The translations under genes and the position numbers were made by a program. The notes under the pieces are model-generated. The model did not search any database and had not been told where the DNA came from. It saw only the letters and a list, made by a program, of their open reading frames with translations. Shown here piece by piece: positions 423 through 52,018 of a DNA stretch of 55,401 nucleotides; within the stretch, counting starts at the first letter, position 1; every line of letters begins with the position of its first letter. This DNA is from a virus, in the IMG/VR virus record IMGVR_UViG_3300049054_000009, positions 1-55,401 of that record. One strand, given 5' to 3'.

Positions 423-638
423 TTATTCTATTATCCTTATGGGTAAGTTTTTATTTTCTAATCTTGATACTATTCTTTCTGCTGCATCATAGGCATCAGA
501 TTTACTAAAGAACGGTTCACCAGATGTAGCTATAATCTTGTTATTAGCAGCTAGCCAGTGCCAGAACCATACTTGCCCGGTCAAAGGTGCAGTTATGGTA
601 TCTTGTTTTAATACTTCTATTCTTTCTATATTATCCAT
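423..638 (-). CDS. DUF1508/YegP-like small protein
   Basis: 71 aa. The motif WFWHWLAANNKIIATSGEPFFSKSDAYDAAERI matches the YegP repeat pattern (xFxLxAxNGxxIAxSexYxsKxxA). Its start overlaps the tape-measure stop by 8 nt. Confidence 0.6.
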   Translation of the reverse strand: MDNIERIEVLKQDTITAPLTGQVWFWHWLAANNKIIATSGEPFFSKSDAYDAAERIVSRLENKNLPIRIIE

Positions 639-10666: not shown

Positions 10667-10711
10667 ATTTTTTATTTTTCCTTTTATTGAATTTCTTAGC
10701 CTTAGCAGCTA

Positions 10712-11476: not shown

Positions 11477-11534
11477 ATTTTTTATTTTCCTTTTGTTTAT
11501 TTTGTTGGCTGGTCATACCAGCCCATGCTGCCAG

Positions 11535-20947: not shown

Positions 20948-21283
20948 TTATTCTGGTTTTAGTATCTGCATAATAGCAGCTATCTGGCTAAGTGGTGTAG
21001 GTTCATCTACACCTAGCACATTTCTAAACTGATTACAAATATTATCAGCAGCTTCTATGCCAGCCTTAGCACCTTCTAGCATAGCACGGATATTATCTAA
21101 AGTAATACCACCTACAGATGATGCACCTGCTACTTCAATCTGGTCAAGTAATTCTTTAGCTTCTTGTGCTATACCTTGCTGTTCAATAATACCTAACACT
21201 AAGCCCTGTATAATTATTTCTACATCAGTATCACTGATAGTGGCAGCTAATTGTGGGTTACTTACATTAAGTAGCTGTATCAT
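20948..21283 (-). CDS. Hypothetical protein
   Basis: 111-aa ORF. Confidence 0.5.
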   Translation of the reverse strand: MIQLLNVSNPQLAATISDTDVEIIIQGLVLGIIEQQGIAQEAKELLDQIEVAGASSVGGITLDNIRAMLEGAKAGIEAADNICNQFRNVLGVDEPTPLSQIAAIMQILKPE

Positions 21284-21864
21284 AATTTCACCCTTCTACC
21301 ATCACACAGCACGGTTAGTTCTGCATAAGGCACTGCATCTTGCCTATGCACCCGGTTAGTTACTTTGCATTTACTGCAAGTCACTGCATTAGCATCAGCC
21401 CTGATAGGTGAAACACGCCACTGCATATCTAAAAGTATTTGCAGGTCTGGTGGCAGGTGGTCTGGTGACTTCACAAATTTACCACCAGCATCTTTTGTGC
21501 CAGTGGCTATTTTATCCATATTATTCTGATGCACTGCCAGAAACATAGCCTTAGCATTAATGCCATGTGCTACAAAGCTGCCTATGACCACATACAGCAA
21601 GTCAGTCAAGCCATCTGCCACAGCTTCAAGGTCTTTAGTCTGGTATGCTTCAATTAATTCATCTAGTTCTTCACGTATTAACCTTACCCTAAGCTGCTGC
21701 ACATCACTGCCAGCAAGTGTAGGCACGTCTGGTGTAATTTGGTCAGCAGCCTGCATAAATTGTTTCATCAGTATTTCTAATGAAAAATGATTATGGCATT
21801 TGATATTTTCTATAGCTATAGCATCTGGTGATGCCTTCTTTTCAAATTTCTTTATTGTCATCAT
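21280..21864 (-). CDS. mazG: MazG-like nucleoside triphosphate pyrophosphohydrolase with a C-terminal Cys-containing extension
   Basis: The motif RVRLIREELDELIEAY...AVADGLTDLLYVVIG is an all-alpha MazG/HisE-type EExxE/D pattern. Start moved to 21864, where AAGGAAAAACAAAACA precedes the ATG. Confidence 0.65.
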   Translation of the reverse strand: MMTIKKFEKKASPDAIAIENIKCHNHFSLEILMKQFMQAADQITPDVPTLAGSDVQQLRVRLIREELDELIEAYQTKDLEAVADGLTDLLYVVIGSFVAHGINAKAMFLAVHQNNMDKIATGTKDAGGKFVKSPDHLPPDLQILLDMQWRVSPIRADANAVTCSKCKVTNRVHRQDAVPYAELTVLCDGRRVKL

Positions 21865-22069
21865 TGTTTTGTTTTTCCTTTTTTGGTATGTAACCTGCTG
21901 CATAATCTTCATTACCGTAATTAGCATGACCTTCACAATAGTAGCCCATATAGCAATCATCACCCATTTCTACATAGCAAGTATCTATTTCACCATAGCA
22001 AGGCTGGTCTAGTTCATCTTCATACCAATTACATAACGTAAGATTATATTTATCTTTTTCTTCTATCAT
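21842..22069 (-). CDS. Small acidic Cys-rich protein
   Basis: 75-aa ORF with 6 Cys; ATGA-coupled to the upstream gene. Confidence 0.45.
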   Translation of the reverse strand: MIEEKDKYNLTLCNWYEDELDQPCYGEIDTCYVEMGDDCYMGYYCEGHANYGNEDYAAGYIPKKEKQNNDDNKEI

Positions 22070-22689
22070 TTTATAAATCTACCTTCACAAGTATCTTTAC
22101 CTGATGCCAGATTATTCATATTTAACATAGGGTGCTGTGAATGTGGCATGCCACATTGTAAGCATACCGGGTCAATACGCTTATCAGTTTTAGGTATCAT
22201 CTGATATACTCTACTTCTTAATAGATGAATAACCACACAAGGTAGTAAACATATATAAATATGTAATTCATCACCATCTATATCTAAATAGTCAATATCA
22301 TTAGTTTTCCAATATGCACCCACCCATAAATCATGCTTATCAAAGTAAGGTGCTTTAAAATACCATTGCTTCTTAACTAGAACACGTTCAAAGCTGTTAC
22401 CTATGGTTTTACCTATTTCAGCCATAGCTTGCCCTACTTTTTGTAAGCCAGCAGCAAAAGCACTGGTATCTACTTTAACAGTCATATTAAACTGCTTAAG
22501 TAGTGGGTTAGCTTCTTGTGCTTCTGCCACTTTAGTACGTAACTTTTCTAGTAATTCTGGCTGCACTTCATCAGATGGTGGTGTCTTGTCATCTGGTGCT
22601 GTATCTGCTGTAATCAGCTTATATGTTCTAACAGCATACCAGCTACCCAAAATCAAACCAGTTAAAATTATTAAGGTTAGTTCTATCAT
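22066..22689 (-). CDS. Membrane-anchored hypothetical protein (N-terminal TM, C-terminal CxxC...C)
   Basis: 207 aa with N-terminus MIELTLIILTGLILGSWYAV. Translationally coupled to the RHH ORF upstream. Confidence 0.55.
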   Translation of the reverse strand: MIELTLIILTGLILGSWYAVRTYKLITADTAPDDKTPPSDEVQPELLEKLRTKVAEAQEANPLLKQFNMTVKVDTSAFAAGLQKVGQAMAEIGKTIGNSFERVLVKKQWYFKAPYFDKHDLWVGAYWKTNDIDYLDIDGDELHIYICLLPCVVIHLLRSRVYQMIPKTDKRIDPVCLQCGMPHSQHPMLNMNNLASGKDTCEGRFIK

Positions 22690-22859
22690 TTACTTCTTTC
22701 CTGTTTATTTATTTCCGCATGAAAAATTTTTACCAGTAACTGGCTTACTGTTAGGTGCTGCTTCTTAGCCATTTGCTGTAGCTTAAATTTCATACCTGCT
22801 GGTATATAAGCACCTATTAATACACCATTACGTTTTTTGACCTTTTTTACATTTTCCAT
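22686..22859 (-). CDS. Ribbon-helix-helix (CopG/Arc-like) DNA-binding protein, 57 aa (below the ORF-track cutoff)
   Basis: My translation: MENVKKVKKRNGVLIGAYIPAGMKFKLQQMAKKQHLTVSQLLVKIFHAEINKQERSK, a beta-strand plus two helices. Its stop TGA overlaps the ATG of 22066..22689. Confidence 0.6.
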   Translation of the reverse strand: MENVKKVKKRNGVLIGAYIPAGMKFKLQQMAKKQHLTVSQLLVKIFHAEINKQERSK

Positions 22860-22862
22860 AAA

Positions 22863-23288
22863 TCACCCTTGCACGTGCAGATTAATAACTATGTGTGCTT
22901 TATGTTTTGGATTACCACACCTAGCTTCTATGACCACAGGCAGCTTACCTGTAGCACTTCTAATGGTCACTGGCTGCCACACCTGTGGCTGCCTTAGATA
23001 CATACGCTGTTCATCTTTTACCTTATCATTAGTAAAATCAAAATCTTGCCAGATAACATTACTGCCTAATTCAAATAGAACACCATCTAGCACCGGGTGC
23101 ATCATCTGATAAGATGATTGAATAATACGCTGCTGCACTTGCTTATCTGCACAGATAATAATTCTGGCAGACATTGGAATATTAGCACCCATGATAACCA
23201 CAGGTGCAAATGTTTCTAGGTCAAGCGTATCAGCTACCATAAAGCCATCTAGCATAGGCTTAACTGGTGCTAGTGTCAGTGTTTTCAT
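22863..23288 (-). CDS. Hypothetical protein
   Basis: 141-aa ORF with GGTAAGGAAAA before the ATG. Confidence 0.55.
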   Translation of the reverse strand: MKTLTLAPVKPMLDGFMVADTLDLETFAPVVIMGANIPMSARIIICADKQVQQRIIQSSYQMMHPVLDGVLFELGSNVIWQDFDFTNDKVKDEQRMYLRQPQVWQPVTIRSATGKLPVVIEARCGNPKHKAHIVINLHVQG

Positions 23289-23904
23289 TTTTCCTTACCT
23301 TCTTGCTGGCAGCTTTCACCTTGTCAGTAAAATCTTTCATGCCTTCTACCACTTCATCTTTCTTTTTAGTGCGTTTAGGTTTGCTTGCCAGCTTATCAAA
23401 ACGGGCTAACAGTTCTTCAAGGGCTAGGCTGCCTACATCACCAGCAGACAAGTCAGCCCATACAGTAGTGCTGACTAGGCTGGCTAGTTCTGCATTAGAC
23501 ATTTTTTGTAGTTCTTCATCTACTGGCATATCTTCTGCAAGCTGTGATACTGCACTATCTTCTAATTTCTTTAAGAAGGGCTGAATTTTGCCATACAGGT
23601 CTTTTGCTAAGTCTTTATAACCATCAGCTTCTGCTGACCGGGCATAAGAAAAAATGGCTGGTGCAGCATGTGGGTCATGTGTAATATCTAATACAAAATA
23701 ATCACACTGGTTATGCTTGCCACCTTTGTTAGTAGAACCATCTAGCCTACGTATAGCATACTTAGGATACAGCCCACGTTCTTTTTTAGGTTTTTCTTGT
23801 TCACGGGCAAGCATGCCTGCCTGCTGTATCTGTTCTTCTGTTAATTGTGTGGCAGTTTTGAATATCTGCCTTTTCTTTTTTTGGTGCTGGTGTCTTTTTC
23901 TCAT
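23260..23904 (-). CDS. Hypothetical protein (basic N-terminus; KYAIRRLDG...CDYFVLDITHDPHA motif)
   Basis: 214-aa ORF. Confidence 0.55.
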   Translation of the reverse strand: MRKRHQHQKKKRQIFKTATQLTEEQIQQAGMLAREQEKPKKERGLYPKYAIRRLDGSTNKGGKHNQCDYFVLDITHDPHAAPAIFSYARSAEADGYKDLAKDLYGKIQPFLKKLEDSAVSQLAEDMPVDEELQKMSNAELASLVSTTVWADLSAGDVGSLALEELLARFDKLASKPKRTKKKDEVVEGMKDFTDKVKAASKKVRKNENTDTSTS

Positions 23905-23908
23905 GTTT

Positions 23909-24160
23909 TTATAATCCTAATGGGTGGTTTTTATTCCAAATTTCTAGCCCTTCATTGATACCTTCATTCAGGCTTACCCGGTCTTGTATCAATTTTCTAA
24001 AATGTGTTTCTGTTACCCCATATTCAGCAGCTAGCCCTGCTTTAGTTAAGCCCTTAGTAGCCACTAAGTGCTTCAAGACTTCTTTAGTTAATGGGTGCTT
24101 CAATTTCTTTTTGCGGTCTTTTATAGGAAAAATGCCTATAGCATCTGTTCTTTTATTCAT
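23909..24160 (-). CDS. Small HTH DNA-binding protein
   Basis: Start moved to MNKRTD.. at 24160 (TAATG overlap with the exonuclease stop). The stretch LTKAGLAAEYGVTETHFRKLI looks HTH-like. Confidence 0.5.
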   Translation of the reverse strand: MNKRTDAIGIFPIKDRKKKLKHPLTKEVLKHLVATKGLTKAGLAAEYGVTETHFRKLIQDRVSLNEGINEGLEIWNKNHPLGL

Positions 24161-24795
24161 TAGAACATACCACGCTGCACTACACCTAACACTTGTGCTG
24201 GTGTCTGCACTGTAAGATAGCACCCACTGACCGGGCAAGTTAAAATGCCATCTATAATCTTGTATAGAATGTTAGCAGTTAAAACCACATCTTGCCTACA
24301 GTAATCATGTAGCTGTGCTATTTTAACCGGGTCACCAGACTGGTAAAGTGCAGGTGCATCAGCACCTGCTGTGCCTTCAAGTTTGCTGCCTAGCCCATTA
24401 GCCTTTGCTATCTGTTCTAGCTTGTAGCCTTTGGCATACATGCCAGCACCTGCTGCTGCCTTGACCTGTTCAAGAATGTCATAGCTTTTACTGGCTGGCA
24501 CATTATAACCCTGTGCTTTCAAAATCTTATTATCAAAGCCATGACTATTAAAGCCCACTATATAATCAGACTGTGCCAGTAAGCTATGCAGTGTTTCTGC
24601 ATCTTCTGCACTTTCTTCTGGTGTCAAAGTGTGCATCTGACCAGTTAAGGTATCTAAGGCACACAGCACAGCTATGCCCATATTTTCATGGTCATGCCAG
24701 CCCATGCAGTAGTTAAGACCGGGCTGCATGCTGCCATACCTATCTGGTATGGCTTTCTTAATTTCAATATCATAAACCATTATTTTTTGTGTCAT
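24160..24795 (-). CDS. DEDDy-type 3'-5' exonuclease (DnaQ/PolB-exo-like)
   Basis: Exo I VYDIE, Exo II GFNSHGFDNKIL, Exo III HDYCRQDV. Confidence 0.75.
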   Translation of the reverse strand: MTQKIMVYDIEIKKAIPDRYGSMQPGLNYCMGWHDHENMGIAVLCALDTLTGQMHTLTPEESAEDAETLHSLLAQSDYIVGFNSHGFDNKILKAQGYNVPASKSYDILEQVKAAAGAGMYAKGYKLEQIAKANGLGSKLEGTAGADAPALYQSGDPVKIAQLHDYCRQDVVLTANILYKIIDGILTCPVSGCYLTVQTPAQVLGVVQRGMF

Positions 24796-24799
24796 GTTT

Positions 24800-25972
24800 T
24801 TATTTTCCTTTTTGTTTTTCTAGTTCTATTTCACTTGCCAGATATGTGGCAGCTTGCTGTAAATCTTCTAACCGGGTGGCTGATGACTTCTTGCCAGCAC
24901 GTAACAGATACTTTAATACATTACCTTCAAAGAAATTTAAGCCATAGTGCCTAATAATCTTGAATGGTTCATACACATTATCTGGCTGGTAGTAATCAGG
25001 TCTTATCTGGTCAGCACGTTTTTCTTCTTTAGGTGCAGCAGCATCTTGCCTATGTGACCATTCATCTTTACACCCTTCTGTGCAAAAATAAACAGTGCCT
25101 AATAATTCATGTGGCTGTGCAGCCAGACTGGTTTGCACTGTAGGGTAATTAGAATGTAGTTCACGGTCTAAATTTCTGCCACAAGCAAAGCAGTGCCATT
25201 TACTAAAACCTTGCTTACTACGTTCTACAGCAGCAGCCTTTTCTTCTGGTGTAGTGCTAATGGTCATGCTGCCTACCTTATTTTTCTGGTATTCATCTTT
25301 ACATTGGCTACTACAAAATGGCACATCACCACCAGCTTCACCTAGAACTATATGCTGACCAGTAATGATTTTGCCACATGGAAAGTAGCCACACCTTAAA
25401 GCTGGCACGGGTGGCAAGCAAGTATGCCCCATAAAATCACCATTCTGCTTACCTTTATAGCTGCCTTTATAATCACACCACAAGCTAGGTGCTTTTTGAT
25501 GGCACGGGTAGCTTAAAAATTCTGCTTTATATTCATCTTTGCAGCCATCATCATCACAAAAGAAAAGTGTTTCTTTGCCATTAAACCAGCTAGGATAATT
25601 ATAAGCAGCATTAGTAAATCTTCTATCACACTGGTAGCAGTTAGTAACACCAGTGCCAGCTTTCTTTACTTCTTCTTCTACCCATGCAACAAAATGCCCG
25701 GTGCAGCAGCAGAAAACTTTAGCACTGGTCTTGTGCTGCTGCCAAACTACCCAAAAGCCTTTTTCTGGTATTTTGTTACAATAGGCACAGGGCTTACTTA
25801 AATCATATTTAGGCACATGGTAGGCTTGCCTGCCATCTACACCACCACAAGCTGGTGCTTTACCCTGCAAAATAAGTAAGCATTTTTCGTGATACCATAA
25901 TTCATTATTTACCACACCTTCTTTATTAGGTATATCTATTTCACCTTTACATTTCATGCAGGTCACTACCAT
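24800..25972 (-). CDS. Cys-rich protein: repeated FCxxxCKDE(Y/W) zinc-ribbon (TRASH/FCS-like) modules fused to a DUF3310-like C-terminus
   Basis: FFCDDDGCKDEY, PFCSSQCKDEY, YFCTEGCKDEW and more CxxC pairs. The C-terminus PDYYQ..EPFKIIRHYGLNFFEGNVLKYLLRAGKK..EDLQQAATYL follows the DUF3310 pattern. Confidence 0.55.
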   Translation of the reverse strand: MVVTCMKCKGEIDIPNKEGVVNNELWYHEKCLLILQGKAPACGGVDGRQAYHVPKYDLSKPCAYCNKIPEKGFWVVWQQHKTSAKVFCCCTGHFVAWVEEEVKKAGTGVTNCYQCDRRFTNAAYNYPSWFNGKETLFFCDDDGCKDEYKAEFLSYPCHQKAPSLWCDYKGSYKGKQNGDFMGHTCLPPVPALRCGYFPCGKIITGQHIVLGEAGGDVPFCSSQCKDEYQKNKVGSMTISTTPEEKAAAVERSKQGFSKWHCFACGRNLDRELHSNYPTVQTSLAAQPHELLGTVYFCTEGCKDEWSHRQDAAAPKEEKRADQIRPDYYQPDNVYEPFKIIRHYGLNFFEGNVLKYLLRAGKKSSATRLEDLQQAATYLASEIELEKQKGK

Positions 25973-26982
25973 AATTTACCACCTGCCTTTAAAATTTCTG
26001 CCTGCTTTTCAAGACCGGGTAGATTAGGTATAAAGTTTAATCTGTTTTCACCTTTGATGAATTTTCTAAGCTGATGCCACCCGGTGCTGAAATTACCTTG
26101 ATACTTACACCTTACTTGCAGTGTGTCAGTTAAGGAATTTTCAAGAAAGGCAAGCTGTGAAGATTCTATGGCTAAAGTATGTTCACACGGGCTGCCTTGA
26201 TGTTCAAAGGGTGAAGGGTGCATGCCAGTTAGCAGCTTATCATACACATTTAAATGGTGTGATACATCACGGTCACCATCATGGTTAAGATAGCTAACAC
26301 CAGCACACCTGCCTACAGAAAGCTGCTTTTGTATTTCTAGCACTTCATCTTCTGGTGCAGATTTTCTACCATCAGTATGCTGGCTAGCTGCCACTTCTAT
26401 ACATTCATCTATGCTTTTAGGGTCATCTGCATAAGGTAAGTGCCACTGACCGGGCTGCAAGGTCTTAGGGTCACCCATGTAATAAGCATACTGCATAGCA
26501 TCAGCCAGTGCCTTAAATTCTGGCTGTGCATCTTTGTGGCATCTTTGCCAAAACATATTATCAAAGTCTGTGGCAGTTAAAATAGCAGTGTGCCAGTTAA
26601 ATGGTTCTAATAGTCGGTTAGCTACCTGCTTATGTAGTTTAAGATTATTAACTAAATAATTGACACGGGTAATAATAGATGTGCTGGCATCTTTCCATAC
26701 TCTTTTAGCTTCATCTATTAAACCTTGTTCTAATTCATTACTAGCCTGCATGCCAGCTTGATTTAATCCAAAGTGAATAGGTAAAGCAGGGTTATCTAAT
26801 ATCTTTTGTATAATTACCTTAGAAGGTATAGCCCTGCTACTGGCACTATTCTTACTTATTACTTTATGGGTGTTTACTTCTGCTAGAATGTATCTATGAA
26901 AAGTAACTACAAAGGTGGTTAGCCTAACACCATTAGGTGCTACACTATCACATATTATTTGTGCTGATGGTTTATTTGTCAT
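25966..26982 (-). CDS. thyX: ThyX-like (flavin-dependent thymidylate synthase family) protein with a divergent signature
   Basis: ICDSVAPNGVRLTTFVVTFHRYILAEVNTHKVISKNSASSRAIP matches the ThyX motif region, but reads THK..S....SSR where the canonical form is RHR..S....S.R. Confidence 0.65.
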   Translation of the reverse strand: MTNKPSAQIICDSVAPNGVRLTTFVVTFHRYILAEVNTHKVISKNSASSRAIPSKVIIQKILDNPALPIHFGLNQAGMQASNELEQGLIDEAKRVWKDASTSIITRVNYLVNNLKLHKQVANRLLEPFNWHTAILTATDFDNMFWQRCHKDAQPEFKALADAMQYAYYMGDPKTLQPGQWHLPYADDPKSIDECIEVAASQHTDGRKSAPEDEVLEIQKQLSVGRCAGVSYLNHDGDRDVSHHLNVYDKLLTGMHPSPFEHQGSPCEHTLAIESSQLAFLENSLTDTLQVRCKYQGNFSTGWHQLRKFIKGENRLNFIPNLPGLEKQAEILKAGGKLW

Positions 26983-27862
26983 TTGTTTTGTTTCCTATAG
27001 ATAAAATACCATTACCAATTTCTGTTTTATTGCTGCCATCTTCATTACTAATAGATACATTAGTAACTTCTGACACAGCTTTAAAGCCATCTTTATTTAA
27101 CCTTTCTTGACGTTCTTTCATAGTTTTGCAGCCTTCTGCTGGCTGCCAGAAGGTTCTAGTGGCTTTCTTAAATCTTTCAATACAGGCAGCAGCCCGGTCT
27201 ATAATGTGAAGGTTATACCATTCTGGTGCATTAAAGTAGCCTTCTGGCTGGTCAGCCATAGCATCAGCTAGCTTACTTAAATCTTTCTGTAACCATTCAA
27301 GCCTTTTACTGGTAGATGTGGCTGGTATATAGTCTAAATGCACTTGATGTTCTTTGGTGGTATGGCTGCCTATTTCAAGGCAAATGTAGCAAATTTCTGC
27401 ACCTGCTTCTTTTCTGATATTTTCCAATATTTTAGGGTCAGCATCACATTCACGGTCAAGGGTGCTTAGATAGTTTGGATATAGATAAGTAATAGGCTTA
27501 TGCAGCAGCCTAGCATATTCAATTTCTGACCGGGTGCTATCACCAATATAGCCACCTACATTAATTACAAAAACTTCATCAGCTAAGTCAATCTTACGCT
27601 TATGCAGTTCATCTAAAAAACCTTTTTCTGCTGGTGTTATGCCTACTGTTTCACCATGTGCTTCACCTAGTGCATGATGATAAAAGCCTACAGACAAGAC
27701 TATTTTACCTTGCATGGTAAAATCAAAATTTGCCTGCACATATTGCTGGTAAAATTTAGTGCTACCACATAAACATACTATGGTAGGTATGCCCGTGTGC
27801 TGCTTTACTGCATCTAGTGCAGGTAGCAGTTTTCTTTTTTCATGTATTTGCTGGTCTGTCAT
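26972..27862 (-). CDS. Nucleoside 2-deoxyribosyltransferase-like (Rossmann-like) N-terminal domain protein with an unknown C-terminal domain
   Basis: TIVCLCGSTKF...IVLSVG...LHKRKIDLADEVFVINVGGYIGDSTRSEIEYA pattern; family assignment is from memory. Confidence 0.4.
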   Translation of the reverse strand: MTDQQIHEKRKLLPALDAVKQHTGIPTIVCLCGSTKFYQQYVQANFDFTMQGKIVLSVGFYHHALGEAHGETVGITPAEKGFLDELHKRKIDLADEVFVINVGGYIGDSTRSEIEYARLLHKPITYLYPNYLSTLDRECDADPKILENIRKEAGAEICYICLEIGSHTTKEHQVHLDYIPATSTSKRLEWLQKDLSKLADAMADQPEGYFNAPEWYNLHIIDRAAACIERFKKATRTFWQPAEGCKTMKERQERLNKDGFKAVSEVTNVSISNEDGSNKTEIGNGILSIGNKTNDK

Positions 27863-27935: not shown

Positions 27936-28418
27936 TCAAAACTTTTTATCATCTTCATCTGTTTTTACCTGTAAATCTACTATATGGGCATCACCACCTA
28001 GCACTATCAAGTTACCATCTTTATCTTTGATGGTCACAGTGCCAGTGCCTTGAAAGTATTTAGCTGGTGTCTTGCCAGCTTCTGCCTTGCCTTCTACCTT
28101 AGCACGGGCTTTTTCTGCCATAGCAATATAGCCTAGTGCTTTCTGGTTAGCTGCTTCACACACGGCTGGCAGTGGTCTAATACTTCTGGCAGCCTTGTTA
28201 TAGTCAGTATCACCTACTTGCCTGCATATTTCTATGCAGAACTGGCAGAACAGCATAGCTGTGCCATCTGGCAGCACTACCTTACTTAAAATAATTTCAG
28301 TGCTGGCTGTTATCTGTGCCAGTTCAAAATGGCATAAATTACATCTAGGCATTTTGCCTAACTGCATATCACGTAACTGGTCAATATTGCCAGCATGTTC
28401 ATATTCTGTATTTGGCAT
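27936..28418 (-). CDS. Hypothetical Cys4 zinc-binding protein
   Basis: Start moved to MPNTEYEH at 28418, 4 nt after the upstream stop. Contains CNLC...CQFC. Confidence 0.5.
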   Translation of the reverse strand: MPNTEYEHAGNIDQLRDMQLGKMPRCNLCHFELAQITASTEIILSKVVLPDGTAMLFCQFCIEICRQVGDTDYNKAARSIRPLPAVCEAANQKALGYIAMAEKARAKVEGKAEAGKTPAKYFQGTGTVTIKDKDGNLIVLGGDAHIVDLQVKTDEDDKKF

Positions 28419-28422
28419 AATT

Positions 28423-28650
28423 TTATTGATTGTCAAAAAGGGTGCTTTTATCCTTCTTAATTGGTTTTCTACGTTTTTTGGCTGGTGGTAACTTCTGACC
28501 GCAAAAAGGGCAAAAGGTAAGCATGATAGCATGCACCACACATTCATTAGTGTGCCACCTTCTGCCACTGGCAAGTATTTTAGATTCTAAAACAGCATTT
28601 ACAAAATGGGTGCAGCAGGCATTATCTATGCCCGGTAAATCATTTTGCAT
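28423..28650 (-). CDS. Small zinc-ribbon protein
   Basis: Contains CCTH...CPFCGQKL and a basic tail. The start may be 28650 (MQNDL) or 28698. Confidence 0.45.
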   Translation of the reverse strand: MQNDLPGIDNACCTHFVNAVLESKILASGRRWHTNECVVHAIMLTFCPFCGQKLPPAKKRRKPIKKDKSTLFDNQ

Positions 28651-29176
28651 TTTTGTGGGATTTTTTACGGGCTTGCAAGGTGGTATCAGCTTCATCAAAG
28701 GTAGCAGCTATAGTGCCACTGATACTAACAGCCGTGCCATCAGGCAAAATAAAAGGTGCATACATAGCTTCTATAGTGTCACGCACTTCTTCTGCTAGAT
28801 GCACCGGGCAAAGTATCACAAATTCATCACCACCATATCTAAACACACGTTCTGCCAGCTTATAGCGTGATGCTACCAGCTTTATCACGGCTGCCATGTT
28901 CTTTAGAACACCATCACCAGTAGTATGGTTAAGCACCTTATTGACAAATTTGAAGTTATTAGCATCAAATAAGATAACAGCAGTGCTTCTGTCAGCTTCT
29001 GCTGTAGGTCTGGCAAGGTCAAATGCCCTTCTATTAGCCAGACCAGTAAGCTGGTCAATATTAGCAGCCCGTTCTGCCTTGTTTCTTAAATCCTTACCTT
29101 CTGGAAAAACGGTATCAGCTACATACTTTCTGACAGTATGAAATAGTGGCTTTTGCGGTAAAATTGTAAATTCCAT
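28640..29176 (-). CDS. Stand-alone GGDEF-domain protein (predicted diguanylate cyclase)
   Basis: LTGLANRRAF, FDANNFKFVN, GDGVLK and RYGGDEF are all present. There is no RxxD I-site and no sensor domain. Start is ATG 29176, or alternatively GTG 29200. Confidence 0.8.
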   Translation of the reverse strand: MEFTILPQKPLFHTVRKYVADTVFPEGKDLRNKAERAANIDQLTGLANRRAFDLARPTAEADRSTAVILFDANNFKFVNKVLNHTTGDGVLKNMAAVIKLVASRYKLAERVFRYGGDEFVILCPVHLAEEVRDTIEAMYAPFILPDGTAVSISGTIAATFDEADTTLQARKKSHKNAK

Positions 29177-29209
29177 ATATTTAAGGGTGGTGTTTAACAC
29201 CAGAAGGTA

Positions 29210-29239
29210 AGCATAGCTTATCTGTGTTTAACGTGTCAA
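29210..29239 (-). promoter_or_regulatory. Sigma70-type promoter for the GGDEF-led transcription unit
   Basis: Minus strand: TTGACA (29239-29234) - 18 nt - TATGCT (29215-29210). Upstream is ATTTTGTAAATTTAAC, similar to the region upstream of the 43.2-kb promoter. Confidence 0.55.
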
Positions 29240-29315
29240 GTTAAATTTACAAAATGTCACCATGCTTACTTTATATACAAAAAATAATTTTCAGCCGTTT
29301 ATATACTTACTAAAC

Positions 29316-29341
29316 ATAAAAGCCCGGTCTGACCACCGGGC
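29316..29341 (-). terminator. Rho-independent terminator
   Basis: Stem gcccggt (29322-29328) pairs with accgggc (29335-29341), 6-nt loop, followed by TTTT on the minus strand. Confidence 0.7.
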
Positions 29342-29399
29342 TGTGCCATGTCAGCAAAAACAAAATGAAAAGCTAACACGTATGTATGAAAAGACCTTA

Positions 29400-29696
29400 C
29401 TAAAATAAGCCACCACTGTCAATTAAATATTTCAGCCACTTGATATATTCAGCCACATCTATATGCTGCTGACTGTCAGCACCATACCAGAACACTGGTT
29501 CTTTATTAGGTTCTACAGCTATACACCATTCAAACCAGTATGGTGCTGCATCTTCTATGATTACAGAACCTAAGAACCATGTGCCACCCACAGGCTTGAT
29601 GTAGAATGGTATAGGGTTATCTACCTGCATTTTTCTGATGTGTATAATGGCATTACGTATGCCAGAATTACCTATGTTATTGATTGTATGTTTCAT
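29400..29696 (-). CDS. Hypothetical protein
   Basis: 98-aa ORF; ATGA overlap with the HNH gene. Confidence 0.5.
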   Translation of the reverse strand: MKHTINNIGNSGIRNAIIHIRKMQVDNPIPFYIKPVGGTWFLGSVIIEDAAPYWFEWCIAVEPNKEPVFWYGADSQQHIDVAEYIKWLKYLIDSGGLF

Positions 29697-30004
29697 TTTG
29701 TTCTTTTCAGGGTCAAAAAAGCCCGGTAAGTAAATTTATTAGATTTTTCATTATTACACCTGTGACATGCCAGCACATAATTACTATCTTCATCTTTACC
29801 ACCATTAGCCTGTGCTATCTTGTGGTCAAGTGTAGCCAGTCTGTGCCAGTTTTCATAGCCAGTGCTATACTTCTTCATATCTTTATGCAAAATAGTCTTG
29901 ATGCCACAGTAATGGCAGTAGGGAAAGGCTAGATAAAGCCTAAGCAGTGCTAGCCTTCTTTTAGCCAGCACAGTTTTAGATGCCTTCTTTTTTCTTTTCA
30001 CCAT
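29693..30004 (-). CDS. HNH endonuclease
   Basis: CHYCG...LDHKIAQANGGKDEDSNYVLACHRCNNEKSN. Confidence 0.85.
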   Translation of the reverse strand: MVKRKKKASKTVLAKRRLALLRLYLAFPYCHYCGIKTILHKDMKKYSTGYENWHRLATLDHKIAQANGGKDEDSNYVLACHRCNNEKSNKFTYRAFLTLKRTK

Positions 30005-47994: not shown

Positions 47995-50900
47995 TTATAA
48001 ACCACTCATTACTATTTCACCATCATCTGACCATACAAATTCTGGTGGTGCGCCACCATCATCACCTGTGGTTACTGGTTCTGATGTACCAGCACCAGCA
48101 GTAATAAGGATAGTGCCAGCAGCATCATTATAAGTAATGGTAATATTTGTGCCAGCTACTAAAGTAGATGCCATAGTATCTTGCACTACTTCTGTATCTA
48201 AAGACAGATTAAGAACATTACCAGCATCATTATAACTGGCATTAATACCAGAACCAGCAGCCACTAAAGCACCTACTATATCTTGTATAGCTTCTGCATC
48301 TACAGATAAGGTAAAACTATTACCAGCATCATTATAACTAGCATTTAAGCCCGTGCCATTAACCACAAAGGTGGCTAACATGTCTTGCATAAATTCTGTC
48401 AAATTAGTAGTGTTAGTTTCTACAGTTAAGGTGTTACCAGCATCATTATAGGTCAAGGTAATATAAGTGCCTTGAACTAAAAATGTAGCTAGCATGTCTT
48501 GTATAGCTTCATTACTTATACTGGCTGCTGGCTGCCATTCAATTAAGCCAGTAGTAGGATTATATAACGGTGCATTATTAGTGCCAGTAGGTGTGCCAGT
48601 TACTGGCACACTACTTATGCTAGTAGCATTACCTGCTGGTGGTGCTACATAAGTGCCACTACCTGCATAAGCAGGTGCATGAATAGTTACACCACTTCTA
48701 GCACTGCCATGTGTAAGTGCTGCATAACTGGTAACACCATCACGGGTGCTGTATAATTGAAAAGTTAAGGCATTAGCTAAACTACCACCATTATCTATAG
48801 TTTCTTGTGCATTAGTATAAATATAACTTTCAGTAACTAAGTCTGATACCGTTCTAAGAAGTGTGCCAGCCTGATTAAATATTTTTAAGGTATATTTAGC
48901 ACCACCTTCTAAGCCCACAGATGCAGTATTTTGTAATATTACCGTGCCTTGTCTAACCCTATCACGGTGTGACCATGCTACTGTAATATCACCACTACCG
49001 GGTATGCTGCCATTATAAACTGTGTTAATTCTAAGATTACCCGGTGCGTAAGGTCTTACACTTCTGTAACCCATAGCCTTAGAAATCATAGCAGCACCAG
49101 CTTCATCTAACACGCCTTGCAGTGTTCTGGTTAAGATTTTTGCATAGCCTGTAGCACCTGCTACATAGTTTGCTTCACTTCTGGCATCACCATAAGAAAA
49201 GAACCATGCACGGGCTGCTGTGGTAAAAGTCTGTGGTGTAGTATCAAGCAAACCACGCCACACATTATTAAGCTGATAGTTACCACTGACCAGTGTGAAA
49301 GATTCAAAAGCCATAATTTCTACTTTTGAACCTTCAATAACTAGAAACAAGTTTTTGCCATTTGCTATTTCAGTGGCTGTAGCAGCACCTAGCTTATCTA
49401 AATTAGATGCACCTGTAGCATTAATTACCAGCACACCAGTATTATCTTTAGCAGCAGTAAGATAGGTATAAGCTGCATTTAATAGCCCTGTAGGTGTGTA
49501 GTTATTATTTGGGTCATCTACATCATAAGTAACATTATCAAGACTGGTCAACATATCAAAGCTAAAGCTACCACTGTTAGGTGCTAAAGCCATTAACCAT
49601 AATCTAGCTGTTTCATCACCAGCTAGCATATAAGGCAATTCATCAAGTAAGGTAGTGGCAGTAGCTACAGGTGCTACAGAAGGGCTAGTGCCACTGGTGG
49701 TAGGTGGTGAAGCTACTATAGCAGACTGGCTGTTAAATAAATCTTCTATAGCTTCTATTTCTATTACAGGGTTAGTAGGGTTACCTATCCTAAGCCCGGT
49801 GCAGCGCATCACCATATTTACTATGGCATTACCATTATGGTCTTTTATTCTTTTAGTAGAAAATTTAAACGTGCTACCAATGGCAGTTTTATAACCTTTA
49901 TTACTTATCTGAAAAGTGACCTTAGCCAGTGGTGTAGTCATAGCTTTTAGGTCACGCTGTGCTACATTAGCAGCAGTGGTAGGGTTACTGATACCTACAT
50001 GCTGCACATTAGCAGCTACTGTAGCACCTTGTATTCTTTGATTAGCTACATCAAAAGCTATGGCAGTATCTTGAATAAAATCATTTAACCTGTTTACAAA
50101 AGGTATAGTCAAATAGTTAGTAGTTTCAGCCCATGCACCACGTGTATAAGAAGATATGCTAAGTATTTCTTTATCAGTATAGCTAGGTATATCTGCTACT
50201 ACATAATCAGCACGGGCTGCCTTGATAACTATTTTACCAGTTTGCAGGTCTGAATAGATTACGCTATCAGTAAGCTGTAAGATATTATTGATAATATCTC
50301 TACATGGTTTGCTAGTATCCCATAAACCAGAAAAACCTAAGCCATCAGTATGAAATTTCTGTGCAGCAGATAAGAAGCTAGCAGTATCTACATACTGTGC
50401 TGGCATGCCTATAGCATATTCAGCACTTCTGAAAATATCATACAAAACTTCAGCAGGGTTAGCATCACCAGTATTAATATTAGAATAATTAGTGCCACTG
50501 TATGGCAGATTATTAGGTATTGATTTTGCTACAAATTGCCATGCAGCTATGTTTTCACTGTTACCTAGATAACCAGAACCTTTTGCCCGTGTTTGCCCTT
50601 TAAAGATTACGTAAAAAATACCCCTATGTGCTGTGTAATTACCATATTGTGTGACTAGGTAAGAATCTTTAGTGGCATTAGGTAAGCCCATGTGAACACC
50701 TAAATACCCATAGATACCACCATTACCACCACTGGCAGGGTCATTACCACCAAATAAGGTAGGCTTATCTATTAATATTTCACTGTCAGTGGTTACACTG
50801 CCAGACCATGCCACCATATCACCTATAATAATTTTTTGCAGTTCATCTACCCGGTAAGCCAGTGCCATTTCTACACCACAGAAATACTTGTAGCCTGTGG

Positions 50901-51171
50901 TCTGTTTTTTAGCCATACCAAAAGAAAGGATTTTTTGCAGGGTGCTGACCTTCTGTATAATAGCTTCACTGCTAAAGTCAGTAAGACTAACTACATTAGG
51001 TGCTTTCATTAAAGCAGTGCCATACAGTTTTGGCACACTTCTAGTAGATTCTGCTGTAGGTGCATCAAGGTCAGCTAAGGTAGCTGGCTTAGGCTGGCTT
51101 GTCTTAGGTCTAAATAACTGACCTAAGATAGTAGAAGCAGCAAACATTAATAATGCAAACCAGAATGGCAT
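47995..51171 (-). CDS. Host-specificity / central tail fiber protein (gpJ-like, Phage-tail_3-type N-terminus)
   Basis: 1058 aa. N-terminus PFWFALLMFAAS..LGQLFRP...VPKLYGT is typical of J-like tip proteins. The C-terminus holds tandem repeats. Confidence 0.7.
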   Translation of the reverse strand: MPFWFALLMFAASTILGQLFRPKTSQPKPATLADLDAPTAESTRSVPKLYGTALMKAPNVVSLTDFSSEAIIQKVSTLQKILSFGMAKKQTTGYKYFCGVEMALAYRVDELQKIIIGDMVAWSGSVTTDSEILIDKPTLFGGNDPASGGNGGIYGYLGVHMGLPNATKDSYLVTQYGNYTAHRGIFYVIFKGQTRAKGSGYLGNSENIAAWQFVAKSIPNNLPYSGTNYSNINTGDANPAEVLYDIFRSAEYAIGMPAQYVDTASFLSAAQKFHTDGLGFSGLWDTSKPCRDIINNILQLTDSVIYSDLQTGKIVIKAARADYVVADIPSYTDKEILSISSYTRGAWAETTNYLTIPFVNRLNDFIQDTAIAFDVANQRIQGATVAANVQHVGISNPTTAANVAQRDLKAMTTPLAKVTFQISNKGYKTAIGSTFKFSTKRIKDHNGNAIVNMVMRCTGLRIGNPTNPVIEIEAIEDLFNSQSAIVASPPTTSGTSPSVAPVATATTLLDELPYMLAGDETARLWLMALAPNSGSFSFDMLTSLDNVTYDVDDPNNNYTPTGLLNAAYTYLTAAKDNTGVLVINATGASNLDKLGAATATEIANGKNLFLVIEGSKVEIMAFESFTLVSGNYQLNNVWRGLLDTTPQTFTTAARAWFFSYGDARSEANYVAGATGYAKILTRTLQGVLDEAGAAMISKAMGYRSVRPYAPGNLRINTVYNGSIPGSGDITVAWSHRDRVRQGTVILQNTASVGLEGGAKYTLKIFNQAGTLLRTVSDLVTESYIYTNAQETIDNGGSLANALTFQLYSTRDGVTSYAALTHGSARSGVTIHAPAYAGSGTYVAPPAGNATSISSVPVTGTPTGTNNAPLYNPTTGLIEWQPAASISNEAIQDMLATFLVQGTYITLTYNDAGNTLTVETNTTNLTEFMQDMLATFVVNGTGLNASYNDAGNSFTLSVDAEAIQDIVGALVAAGSGINASYNDAGNVLNLSLDTEVVQDTMASTLVAGTNITITYNDAAGTILITAGAGTSEPVTTGDDGGAPPEFVWSDDGEIVMSGL
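48090..48515 (-). repeat. Four tandem ~34-aa (about 100-bp) coding repeats at the fiber C-terminus
   Basis: E(A/F/V)xQDxxAxxxVxGTxIxxxYNDAGNxLxL appears four times: ITLTYNDAGNTLTV, LNASYNDAGNSFTL, INASYNDAGNVLNL, ITITYNDAAGTILI. Confidence 0.8.
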
Positions 51172-51175
51172 AAAT

Positions 51176-52018
51176 TTAACCTACATTTTTAACACCCGTT
51201 TGAAAAGGGTTTTTCTTTGGTATTCTATCAAAGCAGCCACATGCACCACCAGTATCTGTGTATGCACCAAACTTACCAGCACAGGTAGAAAACAAATGGT
51301 CACAGCCAGCATAAGCCCGTAAAATTTCACCAGCTACTACATCAGTAGGGAAAGGTGAAAGCAGGGTAAGCACACCTGCTACATTTGCTGTAATTAATCG
51401 TATGTCAGTAACACCAGAATCTAGCACCCTTTCTACAAAGCCAGACTTAAACCACTGGTCTGGCTGTGCAGCCCATTCTGGTGCAGTTAAAGTAAAGCCA
51501 GAAGGTGGTGAAGATAAAGTGCCATCTATCCGAAAAGCAGAAGCTGGCACGGGGCAAAAGCCATCATAAAGAATATGCCCACACAAAGCACTAAAGGTTC
51601 TTCTAAGCCCTAAGCGGTCAAAAAGCACCGTGATAGGTGAACAGTTCAAATAGCTATTCTTATCATCAAACTTACAGCTTTGCACAAAGCCCTGCCAGTA
51701 AACATAAACATCAGCAGGGTCACCCCTGTGAAATTTGAAAACTACTAAAAAAATCTGCTGTGCTGGCACAAAAGCTACATATTGACGTGGTAAAATCCAT
51801 TCTTTACTGGCTTTGATGGTAATACGCTGTGCATTAATTTCTTGACTTTGACCAGTGCCAGAAGGTTCTAAGCCTTCAAGCGGTATATAATCTTCATCTA
51901 AATAAGTATGTATCTGGTCATCAGACGTATAAGTATAAGCCACCGTGCCAGCAGTGAATTTAAATAAAAATATGGGCTTGCCAGCCCGGTTAGATTTTTC
52001 AAAAATGTCAAAACTCAT
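51176..52018 (-). CDS. Tail tip protein, DUF2163 / BR0599-like
   Basis: 280 aa. N-terminus PIFLFKFTAG..YTYTSDD and C-terminus CDHLFSTCAGKFGAYTDTGGACGCFDRIPKKNPF follow the BR0599 pattern. Confidence 0.6.
   Translation of the reverse strand: MSFDIFEKSNRAGKPIFLFKFTAGTVAYTYTSDDQIHTYLDEDYIPLEGLEPSGTGQSQEINAQRITIKASKEWILPRQYVAFVPAQQIFLVVFKFHRGDPADVYVYWQGFVQSCKFDDKNSYLNCSPITVLFDRLGLRRTFSALCGHILYDGFCPVPASAFRIDGTLSSPPSGFTLTAPEWAAQPDQWFKSGFVERVLDSGVTDIRLITANVAGVLTLLSPFPTDVVAGEILRAYAGCDHLFSTCAGKFGAYTDTGGACGCFDRIPKKNPFQTGVKNVG

What the first reader, a model, noticed from the sequence alone, without database searches (positions are those of the whole stretch)
28640..29239. Phage-encoded minimal GGDEF diguanylate cyclase heading its own transcription unit
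**Catalytic features.** This ~178-aa protein is essentially a bare GGDEF domain. It keeps the catalytic and guanine-binding elements: LTGLANRRAF, D in FDANNFK, N in FVNK, D in GDGVL, and RYGGDEF.

**Missing regulation.** It has no RxxD inhibitory I-site upstream of GGDEF and no sensory domain. That suggests unregulated c-di-GMP synthesis.

**Placement.** It follows a clean terminator (29316-29341) and a TTGACA-N18-TATGCT promoter. It is followed by two small zinc-ribbon ORFs and then the nucleotide-metabolism genes.

**Possible roles.** A phage cyclase could reprogramme host motility, biofilm or receptor display, for example for superinfection exclusion. It could also interfere with nucleotide-second-messenger immunity or drain GTP.
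Basis: partly seen in the sequence, partly recalled or inferred. Interest (0 to 1): 0.7.

Follow-up and report, generated by a model that had tools for sequence, protein, structure and literature searches.

The report
Stand-alone phage c-di-GMP synthase gene
A complete 55-kb uncultured phage genome carries a small, catalytically intact enzyme predicted to make the bacterial second messenger c-di-GMP; this is a real but already-known kind of phage gene whose purpose in infection has not been tested.

Summary
The minus-strand ORF 28640-29176 encodes a 178-aa GGDEF protein. It passes Pfam (66.8 bits against a 23.8 cut-off) and TIGR00254, and it models confidently (pLDDT 92.9) as a helical hairpin plus a GGDEF fold.

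The metal-binding, guanine-binding and GGDEF residues are invariant in 43 close relatives and nearly so in 138 wider ones. None carries the RxxD inhibitory site.

The gene is the first of a multi-gene unit. It follows a terminator and a TTGACA-N18-TATGCT promoter. The extended promoter sequence is conserved in six related ~55-kb phages and is unique in the window.

The window is a complete circular phage genome, shown by a 127-bp terminal repeat. It encodes no recognisable c-di-GMP receptor or degrading enzyme.

New context: the same module occurs 42-52% identical inside giant phage "polyvalent" proteins. In one podovirus-like contig it sits in the position of the ejected T7 gp16-like core protein.

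Best reading: a product-uninhibited diguanylate cyclase that floods host c-di-GMP signalling early in infection.

It is not new in kind. Yuavirus and Vojvodinavirus phages carry annotated stand-alone GGDEF proteins, and GGDEF domains in polyvalent proteins were described in 2017. I found no biochemistry for any phage GGDEF. Interest is moderate.

The parts
28640..29176 (-). CDS of the 178-aa stand-alone GGDEF protein, including the stop codon at 28640-28642. An N-terminal helical hairpin (about aa 10-38) is followed by the GGDEF domain (about aa 38-178).
   Evidence: ORF. Start fixed by relatives and an independent gene call. Pfam and NCBIfam above cut-off. AF2 pLDDT 92.9 and Foldseek hits to WspR, DgcB and PleD. 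Catalytic residues invariant.
29210..29239 (-). Sigma-70-type promoter: TTGACA, 18-nt spacer, TATGCT.
   Evidence: Scan. The same TTGACA-N18-TAT..T architecture lies in front of the orthologue in L001 and L003 and of the more distant family member in L006. Aligned across seven phages.
29226..29251 (-). Extended conserved promoter block, TGTAAATTTAACTTGACACGTTAAAC. It covers an upstream element, the -35 hexamer and the first half of the spacer.
   Evidence: Once in the window against 0.01 expected. The AACTTGACA and TT(A/T)AAC blocks are conserved in seven related phages whose GGDEF proteins are only 51-82% identical.
29188..29202 (-). Inverted repeat TGGTGTTAAACACCA in the predicted ~27-nt leader, between the -10 hexamer and the ATG. 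It may be an operator or a 5' stem-loop; its function is unknown.
   Evidence: a perfect palindrome here only. GTTAAACAC occurs twice in the window, both times in this promoter region. TGGT..ACCA arms are kept in 6 of 7 relatives with a variable spacer. Covariation support is weak, with 1 pair.
29311..29342 (-). Intrinsic terminator ending the upstream unit: AGCCCGGT-GGTCAG-ACCGGGCT followed by TTTATGTTT.
   Evidence: An 11-pair terminator sits at the same relative place in the closest relative, L001.
28423..28650 (-). 75-aa Cys-rich (CC..WH..CPFCG) small protein. Its ATG overlaps the GGDEF stop by 11 nt, suggesting translational coupling.
   Evidence: Homologues directly follow GGDEF with -10 to +1 nt spacing in L001, L003, L169 and L171, and with a 24-nt overlap in L170. 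Weak DUF6980 hit, E 7e-4. It is not conserved next to the GGDEF in other phage backgrounds (L006, L014).
27936..28418 (-). 160-aa protein with two CxxC pairs (MPNTEYEHAGN...), the next gene in the same unit.
   Evidence: Homologues in L003 and L169. No Pfam, PHROG or PADLOC family.

Best explanation
The gene encodes a catalytically competent, guanine-specific diguanylate cyclase (2 GTP -> c-di-GMP + 2 PPi). It has been reduced to a GGDEF domain plus a short N-terminal helical hairpin. The hairpin probably supplies the homodimer contact that the reaction requires.

The protein has no sensor domain and no RxxD product-inhibition site. Once made, its output should therefore be limited mainly by how much protein there is.

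It is transcribed by the host RNA polymerase from a conserved sigma-70-type promoter. It is the first gene of an early or middle unit that continues into the nucleotide-metabolism genes.

The phage encodes no recognisable c-di-GMP receptor or phosphodiesterase. The product must therefore act on host effectors. The most likely consequence is a rapid, post-translational switch of the infected cell to a high c-di-GMP state, with flagella and type IV pili shut down and the surface or exopolysaccharide changed. That would exclude competing phages and lock the cell in a state favourable for phage production.

**Shown here:** the fold, the motif integrity and its conservation, the absence of the I-site, promoter conservation, the phage context, and kinship with GGDEF modules of phage polyvalent or ejected proteins.

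**Inferred:** enzyme activity, dimerisation through the hairpin, timing, and the downstream biological effect.
For: **Family membership and fold.**
- Pfam and NCBIfam scores are above their cut-offs.
- The best solved-structure matches are active cyclases: YfiN/TpbB, DgcB, WspR and PleD.
- The AF2 model has pLDDT 92.9. Helices 18-31 and 33-46 (186-aa numbering) lead into the domain like the stalk helix of GCN4-WspR and DgcB.

**Residue conservation.**
- The residues equivalent to PleD D327, N335, D344, R366, E370/E371 and K442 are invariant in 44 sequences.
- They are nearly invariant in 138 more distant relatives. 0 of 138 have Arg at the I-site Arg position.

**Residence in the phage.**
- Gene composition equals that of the genome: GC 41.7% against 39.5%, GC3 0.31.
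- The syntenic position is kept in the six related ~55-kb phages examined.
- The conserved promoter is described.

**No phage-encoded partner.** No PilZ, EAL or HD-GYP family was found in any other window protein.

**Effector context.** The same module sits inside giant proteins carrying LPD22 or LPD38 polyvalent-protein domains. In L019 it lies at the place of the ejected gp16-like internal virion protein. That fits an effector needed at the very start of infection.

**Literature.**
- The YIP peptide of PB1-like phages raises c-di-GMP through YfiN and lowers motility (PMC8085984).
- High c-di-GMP induces PlzR, which removes type IV pili and blocks pilus-dependent phages, including YuA (PMC11461919).
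Against: - There is no biochemical or in vivo datum for this protein, or for any phage GGDEF, in the literature searched.
- Isolated GGDEF domains are often weakly active unless dimerised, and the dimer could not be modelled here.
- The position equivalent to PleD K332 is Gly in most family members, although it is Lys in the window protein.
- The last strand of the canonical domain is missing: Pfam aligns profile positions 1-132 of 161.
- The gene lacks the AAGGAAAA ribosome-binding motif seen before 27 of 48 window genes, so protein levels may be low.
- The host is unknown. Whether it has c-di-GMP effectors cannot be checked.
Confidence: 0.7

Rival explanations
1. The enzyme does make c-di-GMP, but its purpose lies in the conflict between invader, host defence and rival elements rather than in motility or biofilm reprogramming. 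The nucleotide would jam, pre-empt or mis-trigger host immune sensors of cyclic nucleotides, or arm a response against competing elements. This is what Iyer et al. proposed for GGDEF domains of polyvalent proteins.
For: - Close relatives (42-52% identical) are modules of giant polyvalent proteins with LPD22 or LPD38 domains.
- One sits in the position of the ejected internal virion protein, so it would be delivered before any phage gene expression.
- The hypothesis is stated in PMC5512222.
- Cyclic-nucleotide decoys and sponges are an established theme in phage-host conflict (Panoptes, PMC12657218).
Against: - No known defence-system or anti-defence family was detected for this protein or its neighbours in PADLOC. 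The only hit is a marginal one, E 2e-4, to a model labelled WYL.
- No c-di-GMP-jammed immune effector was identified here.
- The literature recovered here on phage-related c-di-GMP effects concerns surface structures, motility and receptor display.
Confidence: 0.2
2. The protein is a nucleotide cyclase or polymerase with a different product, such as 3'3'-cGAMP or c-di-AMP as in Hypr GGDEFs, linear pppGpG, or a larger oligonucleotide. Alternatively it acts mainly by consuming GTP.
For: - GGDEF, Cas10 palm and mCpol enzymes share the fold and make diverse products (PMC12657218).
- The clade is distinct and seen so far only in viral or unassigned contigs: no relative above ~40% identity was found among 185,579 species genomes.
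- The residue equivalent to PleD K332 varies.
Against: - The two guanine-reading residues (equivalents of PleD N335 and D344) are invariant in the 44 close sequences. In the 138 wider relatives the Asn is invariant and the Asp is kept in 133, with Asn in the other 5.
- From my own knowledge of Hallberg et al. 2016, the Hypr signature is Ser at the D344 position. It is absent here.
- There is no strong ribosome-binding site, which argues against a bulk GTP-draining role.
Confidence: 0.08
3. It is a degenerate, non-catalytic GGDEF protein that acts as a GTP or c-di-GMP binder or as a protein-interaction module, in the manner of LapD, FimX or CsrD.
For: - Many GGDEF domains in bacteria are non-catalytic.
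- The Yuavirus and Vojvodinavirus homologues have AGDEF or SGDEF motifs.
- The domain is compact and lacks the terminal strand.
Against: - The full catalytic set, including GGDEF, the metal-binding Asp and the Arg before GGDEF, is invariant across the family. That is the pattern expected under selection for catalysis.
- It has no I-site with which to bind c-di-GMP.
Confidence: 0.05

Closest known systems
Canonical bacterial diguanylate cyclases (PleD, WspR, YfiN/TpbB, DgcB; Pfam PF00990)
   Same: - Same fold and the same active-site residues: the metal-binding Asp, the guanine-binding Asn and Asp, the R-x-GGDEF hairpin and the C-terminal Lys.
- A helix precedes the DxLTGL motif, as in stalk or coiled-coil cyclases.
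   Different: - No receiver, PAS, GAF, HAMP or membrane input domain.
- No RxxD I-site.
- Only about 26-36% identical.
- The last strand is missing.
- Encoded by a phage.
- No member of its clade was found in 185,579 bacterial and archaeal species genomes.
Stand-alone GGDEF proteins of Yuavirus (e.g. Pseudomonas phage AN14 gp48) and Vojvodinavirus (Bordetella phages FP1, CN1, LK3)
   Same: - Small (156 aa) stand-alone phage GGDEF proteins with the same compact C-terminal half and the same metal- and guanine-binding residues.
- They lie in the replication and host-interaction module near an exonuclease.
- They are annotated as diguanylate cyclases, and hyper-biofilm LK3 lysogens have been reported (PMC8471281).
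   Different: - Only 31-33% identical.
- Their motif is AGDEF or SGDEF rather than GGDEF.
- They lack the PEG-containing second helix of the N-terminal hairpin.
- Their phages carry integrase and repressor genes, whereas no integrase was recognised in this window.
GGDEF modules of phage and plasmid polyvalent proteins (Iyer, Burroughs, Anand, de Souza & Aravind 2017)
   Same: - Closest sequence relatives outside the solo clade, at 42-52% identity over residues ~14/28-177.
- Same I-site-less catalytic core.
- The giant proteins carry LPD22 or LPD38 domains, and one occupies the ejected-core-protein position.
- That paper notes that polyvalent-protein domains also occur as stand-alone genes in phages; the passage I read says this of the 2H phosphoesterase domain.
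   Different: The window protein is a free 178-aa polypeptide made after entry from its own promoter. It is not a domain of a packaged multi-effector.
YIP peptides of PB1-like Pseudomonas phages (De Smet et al. 2020)
   Same: A functional analogue: a lytic-phage product that raises host c-di-GMP, reduces motility and increases biofilm formation.
   Different: YIP is a small peptide that activates the host cyclase YfiN. The protein here is predicted to be the cyclase itself. There is no sequence relationship.
Minimal CRISPR polymerase OptS (mCpol) of the Panoptes defence system
   Same: A minimal stand-alone palm-domain cyclase of the GGDEF/Cas10 superfamily used in phage-host conflict.
   Different: mCpol is host-encoded, largely lacks the GGDEF motif and makes 2',3'-c-di-AMP. 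The window protein matches classical GGDEF models with an intact motif and guanine-specific residues.

Membership tests
GGDEF domain family (Pfam PF00990 / TIGR00254) | Profile score above the curated cut-off | tested here: met
   PF00990 scores 66.8 bits against 23.8. TIGR00254 scores 65.1 bits against 37.4.
GGDEF domain family (Pfam PF00990 / TIGR00254) | Palm-like GGDEF fold | tested here: met
   AF2 model with pLDDT 92.9. The top 50 Foldseek PDB hits are all GGDEF-domain structures, almost all diguanylate cyclases, with E down to 1e-11.
Catalytically active diguanylate cyclases | Intact GG(D/E)EF active-site hairpin preceded by Arg | tested here: met
   RYGGDEF at aa 113-119. The R, D and E are invariant in 44 family members.
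Catalytically active diguanylate cyclases | Metal-binding Asp (PleD D327) and guanine-binding Asn and Asp (PleD N335, D344) | tested here: met
   D71, N79 and D88 are invariant in the 44 close sequences. In the 138 wider relatives D71 and N79 are invariant and D88 is kept in 133. The residue equivalences come from alignment to YfiN and DgcB and from my own knowledge of PleD numbering.
Catalytically active diguanylate cyclases | Phosphate-binding basic residues in the last helix (PleD K442, R446) | tested here: met
   K171 is invariant. K175 is Lys or Arg in 43 of 44.
Catalytically active diguanylate cyclases | Homodimerisation bringing two GTP-loaded domains together | not testable with these tools
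   Only a monomer model could be made. An N-terminal helical hairpin with conserved residues (R16, P25, E26, R31, R36) is a candidate interface.
Catalytically active diguanylate cyclases | c-di-GMP synthesis from GTP | not testable with these tools
   Needs an enzyme assay.
Product-inhibited DGC subclass (I-site bearing) | RxxD motif five residues upstream of GGDEF | tested here: not met
   The position reads KLAE. None of the 42 close relatives in which the GGDEF motif was located, and none of 138 wider relatives, has Arg at that position.
Hypr GGDEF (cGAMP-producing) subclass | Ser instead of Asp at the PleD D344-equivalent position | tested here: not met
   Asp is invariant in the 44 close sequences and kept in 133 of the 138 wider relatives; the other 5 have Asn, not Ser. 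The signature itself is from my own knowledge of Hallberg et al. 2016.
Polyvalent-protein GGDEF module clade | Embedded in a multi-domain giant protein with LPD or other effector domains | tested here: not met
   The window protein is a solo 178-aa polypeptide. It is only a close relative (42-52% identical) of such modules.

The most novel reading that the evidence does not exclude
This I-site-less minimal GGDEF module may be a dedicated phage weapon used from the first moments of infection. It would be either injected as part of gp16-like or polyvalent ejection proteins, or expressed solo from a dedicated promoter as here. Its nucleotide product would serve to disarm, pre-empt or mis-trigger host cyclic-nucleotide immunity, or to exclude rival phages, rather than to act as a biofilm accessory gene. 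That would make c-di-GMP, or a close analogue, an offensive viral signal.
Probability: 0.2. Interest if true: 0.7.

Novelty: new member of a known kind. Interest (0 to 1): 0.4.

Why it matters
Phages are known to interfere with c-di-GMP signalling indirectly, as the YIP peptides do. GGDEF genes have been annotated in several phage groups and in polyvalent proteins. In the literature I could search, however, no phage GGDEF has been characterised biochemically.

This family is small, soluble-looking and free of input domains and product inhibition. It is conserved as a solo gene in a coherent lineage of ~55-kb phages, and it also occurs fused into ejected proteins. That makes it a convenient entry point for asking what a virus gains from making c-di-GMP. 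It could also serve as a compact, constitutive cyclase tool.

It does not overturn anything. It is an ordinary-looking but well-preserved example of a known theme.

Tried and rejected
- **Megablast of 26-32 kb against 50,697 phage records:** no match. The phage has no close cultured relative. The terminase is at most 28% identical to any record.
- **Scan of 185,579 species genomes with family-specific patterns:** only generic cellular GGDEFs, mostly 28-40% identical and higher only over partial matches, with no prophage copy that would name a host.
- **tRNA scan:** none found.
- **Host inference from tail and capsid proteins:** ambiguous. The tail protein resembles those of siphoviruses of Proteobacteria at 26-30%; the capsid resembles Microcystis phages at 32%.
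- **PADLOC:** no defence-system kinship, only a marginal hit at E 2e-4.
- **PHROGs:** only families of unknown function, all with longer profiles (274-693 positions).
- **Search for a phage-encoded c-di-GMP receptor or phosphodiesterase among the window's proteins:** none found.
- **Conserved functional partner:** the downstream Cys-rich 75-aa gene is coupled only within the ~55-kb lineage, not in other phage backgrounds.
- **RNA-structure reading of the leader inverted repeat:** alifold gave -2.3 kcal/mol and a single covarying pair, so this is not established.
- **Hypr, alternative-product and degenerate-receptor readings:** rejected on residue conservation.
- **Recent capture of a host gene:** rejected on composition and synteny.
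- **Technical note:** my first regular-expression attempts to extract domains from relatives failed. I replaced them with phmmer and MAFFT.
Full report

Yes. The minus strand carries an ORF at 28640..29200, 186 aa from a GTG. The closest relatives are 178 aa and begin M(E/Q)IT(L)LPQ, aligned with the in-frame ATG at 29176. An independent gene call on another public contig gives exactly this 178-aa product. The CDS is therefore 28640-29176.

Pfam GGDEF scores 66.8 bits against a cut-off of 23.8. TIGR00254 scores 65.1 bits against 37.4. The best matches among solved structures are the cyclases YfiN/TpbB, DgcB, SadC, WspR and PleD.

An AlphaFold2 model built on 44 sequences has mean pLDDT 92.9. 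It shows two N-terminal helices followed by the GGDEF fold. The top 50 Foldseek PDB hits are all GGDEF-domain structures, almost all diguanylate cyclases. The best are constructs with a coiled-coil or stalk helix in front of the domain: GCN4-WspR, WspR, and DgcB with its coiled coil, at E about 1e-11.

**2. Catalytic and regulatory residues.**

I aligned 43 short relatives (38-81% identical) with the window protein. Five features are invariant:
- the metal-binding Asp (D71 in 178-aa numbering; PleD D327 by my knowledge of PleD numbering and the YfiN/DgcB alignments);
- the guanine-binding Asn and Asp (N79 and D88; PleD N335 and D344);
- the Arg before the motif (R113);
- the D and E of GGDEF;
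- a C-terminal Lys (K171).

In a second, wider set of 138 relatives the same positions are invariant or nearly so. That set came from an exhaustive phmmer search of 1.84 billion cluster representatives.

The I-site position reads KLAE. None of the 42 close relatives in which the GGDEF motif was located has RxxD there, and none of the 138 wider ones has Arg at the Arg position. Retention of Asp at the D344-equivalent position argues for a canonical guanine-specific enzyme and against a Hypr-type one.

Two departures from the canonical domain are worth noting. The PleD K332-equivalent is Gly in most of the family, although it is Lys in the window protein. The Pfam alignment also stops at profile position 132 of 161, and the model lacks the last strand.

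The first ~45 residues are not junk. R16, P25, E26, R31 and R36 are conserved and form a helical hairpin. I infer, but cannot show, that this is the dimer contact.

**3. Context in the window.**

The first and last 127 bases of the window are identical. It is therefore a complete circular assembly of 55,274 bp.

It is a tailed phage. It has a terminase, a Mu-type portal, an S49 protease, an E-type capsid protein, a tape measure and GTA-like tail proteins (Phage-tail_3, Rcc01698_C, Phage_BR0599), plus an SLT transglycosylase. Its replication module has SNF2 and UvrD helicases. Essentially all genes are on the minus strand. No integrase was recognised.

There is no close cultured relative. Megablast found nothing and the terminase is at most 28% identical to any phage record.

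The GGDEF gene lies between the helicase block and a block with a divergent ThyX-like gene, a DUF3310 gene, an RNase H-like exonuclease and a MazG-like pyrophosphatase. Its base composition matches the genome. No PilZ, EAL, HD-GYP or other c-di-GMP family was found among the other window proteins. Any product must therefore act on host components.

**4. The transcription unit.**

The scan recovers the terminator (stem at 29342..29321 plus a T-run) and the TTGACA-18-TATGCT site at 29239..29210. By itself such a promoter match is no better than chance: 24 were found against 19.7 expected.

Comparison settles it. TTGACA-N18-TAT..T sits in front of the orthologue in L001 and L003, and even in an unrelated 42-kb phage, L006. 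The GGDEF proteins of these are 81%, 59% and 50% identical to the window's.

An alignment of seven members of the ~55-kb lineage shows invariant AACTTGACA, a conserved TT(A/T)AAC block in the spacer, and an upstream TGTAAA. The extended pattern occurs once in the window against 0.01 expected.

In the window, L001 and L003, the -10 hexamer ends 33 nt before the ATG. I infer a leader of about 27 nt. That leader holds an inverted repeat, TGGTGTTAAACACCA at 29188-29202. Its TGGT..ACCA arms recur in 6 of 7 relatives with a variable spacer. Covariation is too weak to call it an RNA structure.

The gene lacks the AAGGAAAA-type ribosome-binding motif seen before 27 of 48 window genes. No convincing terminator follows. 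The next ORF overlaps the GGDEF stop by 11 nt. GGDEF is therefore the promoter-proximal gene of a multi-gene unit.

**5. The family and where else it occurs.**

The word-indexed search found about 43 short relatives. Several lie on contigs of 53-56 kb that share the window's synteny: UvrD, then GGDEF, a small Cys-rich gene, ThyX-like, DUF3310 and the exonuclease. Others lie on unrelated 42-kb contigs of higher GC.

IMG/VR holds 158 viral contigs with a relative. Thirteen of them are at least 43% identical over the best segment. INPHARED holds 119 phage records with a GGDEF match below 40% identity.

A pattern scan of one genome for each of 185,579 species returned only generic cellular GGDEFs, mostly 28-40% identical and higher only over partial matches.

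The exhaustive search gave 35 representatives at E<=1e-30 and 1,994 at E<=1e-10. About half of the best 150 are giant proteins of 600-6,158 aa. In these the same module (query residues ~14/28-177, 42-52% identical) is one internal domain. Three of four giants tested carry Pfam "large polyvalent protein associated" domains LPD38 or LPD22.

In the viral contig L019 (45 kb, GC 66%) the gene order is:
- tail protein (phrog_376);
- internal virion protein (phrog_418);
- a 573-aa protein (phrog_10475);
- the 2,462-aa GGDEF-bearing protein (phrog_9880).

From my knowledge of T7 genome organisation, that last position is the place of the ejected gp16-like core protein of T7-like podoviruses.

**6. What is already known.**

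Iyer et al. 2017 listed GGDEF among the enzymatic domains of phage and plasmid polyvalent proteins. They proposed that such a cyclase could interfere with host nucleotide signalling or arm a response against rival elements. In the passage I read they also noted that one polyvalent-protein domain, the 2H phosphoesterase, occurs as a solo gene in several phages (PMC5512222).

Yuavirus and Vojvodinavirus phages carry 156-aa stand-alone GGDEF proteins annotated as diguanylate cyclases. These are 31-33% identical to the window protein, have AGDEF or SGDEF motifs, and lack part of the N-terminal hairpin. For Bordetella phage LK3 only a correlation with hyper-biofilm lysogens is reported (PMC8471281).

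BFVD also holds GGDEF models from Bacillus phages G and SP-15 and from uncultured phages.

Functional precedent for phages raising c-di-GMP is the YIP peptide, which activates host YfiN (PMC8085984). High c-di-GMP induces PlzR, which abolishes type IV pili and blocks pilus-dependent phages (PMC11461919).

Six literature searches found no biochemical characterisation of a phage-encoded GGDEF.

**7. Mechanism I commit to.**

I read this as a constitutively competent, product-uninhibited diguanylate cyclase. Confidence that it makes c-di-GMP is about 0.7. It would be made early or in the middle period from a host-type promoter, and it would push the infected cell into a high c-di-GMP state through host effectors.

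Infection cycles are short, and fused relatives appear to be delivered at time zero. Fast post-translational outputs are therefore the most plausible benefit. These would be flagellar and pilus shutdown and exopolysaccharide activation, giving superinfection exclusion and immobilisation. This last step is inference. Its confidence is perhaps 0.35, with the anti-defence or inter-element conflict role as the main rival at about 0.2. The alternative-product and non-catalytic readings are disfavoured by residue conservation.

**8. Verdict.**

The feature is a new member of a known kind. Its value lies in being a clean, compact representative of a phage-specific, I-site-less GGDEF clade that also exists as a module of ejected or polyvalent proteins, in a field where experiments are still missing. 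Interest: 0.4.

Noticed in passing
window 1-127 and 55275-55401: The first and last 127 bases are identical, the signature of a circular assembly. The window is a complete, circularly permuted phage genome of 55,274 bp. The structural module wraps around the ends: the tape measure is at 631-4533 and the tail genes at 45.6-55.3 kb.
   Followed up: partly
proteins P0122, P0129, P0130, P0133, P0166, P0168, P0229 and others; locus L019 3853-11241: The same minimal GGDEF module (42-52% identical) is an internal domain of giant phage proteins of 600-6,158 aa, some with LPD22 or LPD38 polyvalent-protein domains. In L019 the 2,462-aa protein follows a tail protein, an internal virion protein and a 573-aa protein, which is the place of a T7 gp16-like ejected core protein.
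   Followed up: partly
window 28423-28650 (-): A 75-aa Cys-rich protein (CC..WH..CPFCG, with a weak DUF6980 hit) overlaps the GGDEF stop codon by 11 nt. Homologues immediately follow GGDEF in five related phages (L001, L003, L169, L170, L171). It is not found next to GGDEF in other phage backgrounds. It may be a lineage-specific partner.
   Followed up: partly
window 29188-29202 and 29224-29232 (-): GTTAAACAC occurs only twice in the 55 kb: once in the promoter spacer, and once inside a perfect palindrome in the leader of the GGDEF gene. Both copies are conserved in L001. L003 keeps the leader palindrome and a one-mismatch copy (GTTAAACAA) in the spacer. This looks like an operator, but no regulator was identified.
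   Followed up: partly
window 21280-27862 (-): A nucleotide-metabolism block downstream of GGDEF. It holds a 296-aa protein with no family, a divergent ThyX-like protein (338 aa, only 30.7 bits to Thy1), a 390-aa DUF3310 protein with extra Cys motifs, an RNase H-like exonuclease and a MazG-like PRA-PH pyrophosphatase. The weak ThyX match raises the possibility of a modified-base pathway rather than plain thymidylate synthesis.
   Followed up: no
window 29693-30004 (-): A 103-aa HNH endonuclease lies just upstream of the GGDEF unit. No Pfam hit is recorded for the genes called at the corresponding position of the closest relative, L001, so it may be a mobile homing-endonuclease insertion.
   Followed up: no
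window, upstream of most structural genes (e.g. 10667-10686, 11477-11496, 24796-24815): An A-rich ribosome-binding motif, AAAGGAAAATAAA(A/C)AA(T/C), recurs directly before the ATG of many genes. 27 of 48 genes have an SD-like core. The GGDEF gene has none.
   Followed up: partly
window 47995-52018 (-): The tail module is of the GTA or Rhodobacter type (Phage-tail_3 and Rcc01698_C in the 1,058-aa protein; a Phage_BR0599 hit in one of the other window proteins scanned). The 1,058-aa protein is 26-30% identical to tail proteins of siphoviruses of Xylella/Xanthomonas, Pseudomonas, Sphingomonas and Vibrio. The capsid protein is closest (32%) to Microcystis phages. The host remains unresolved.
   Followed up: partly
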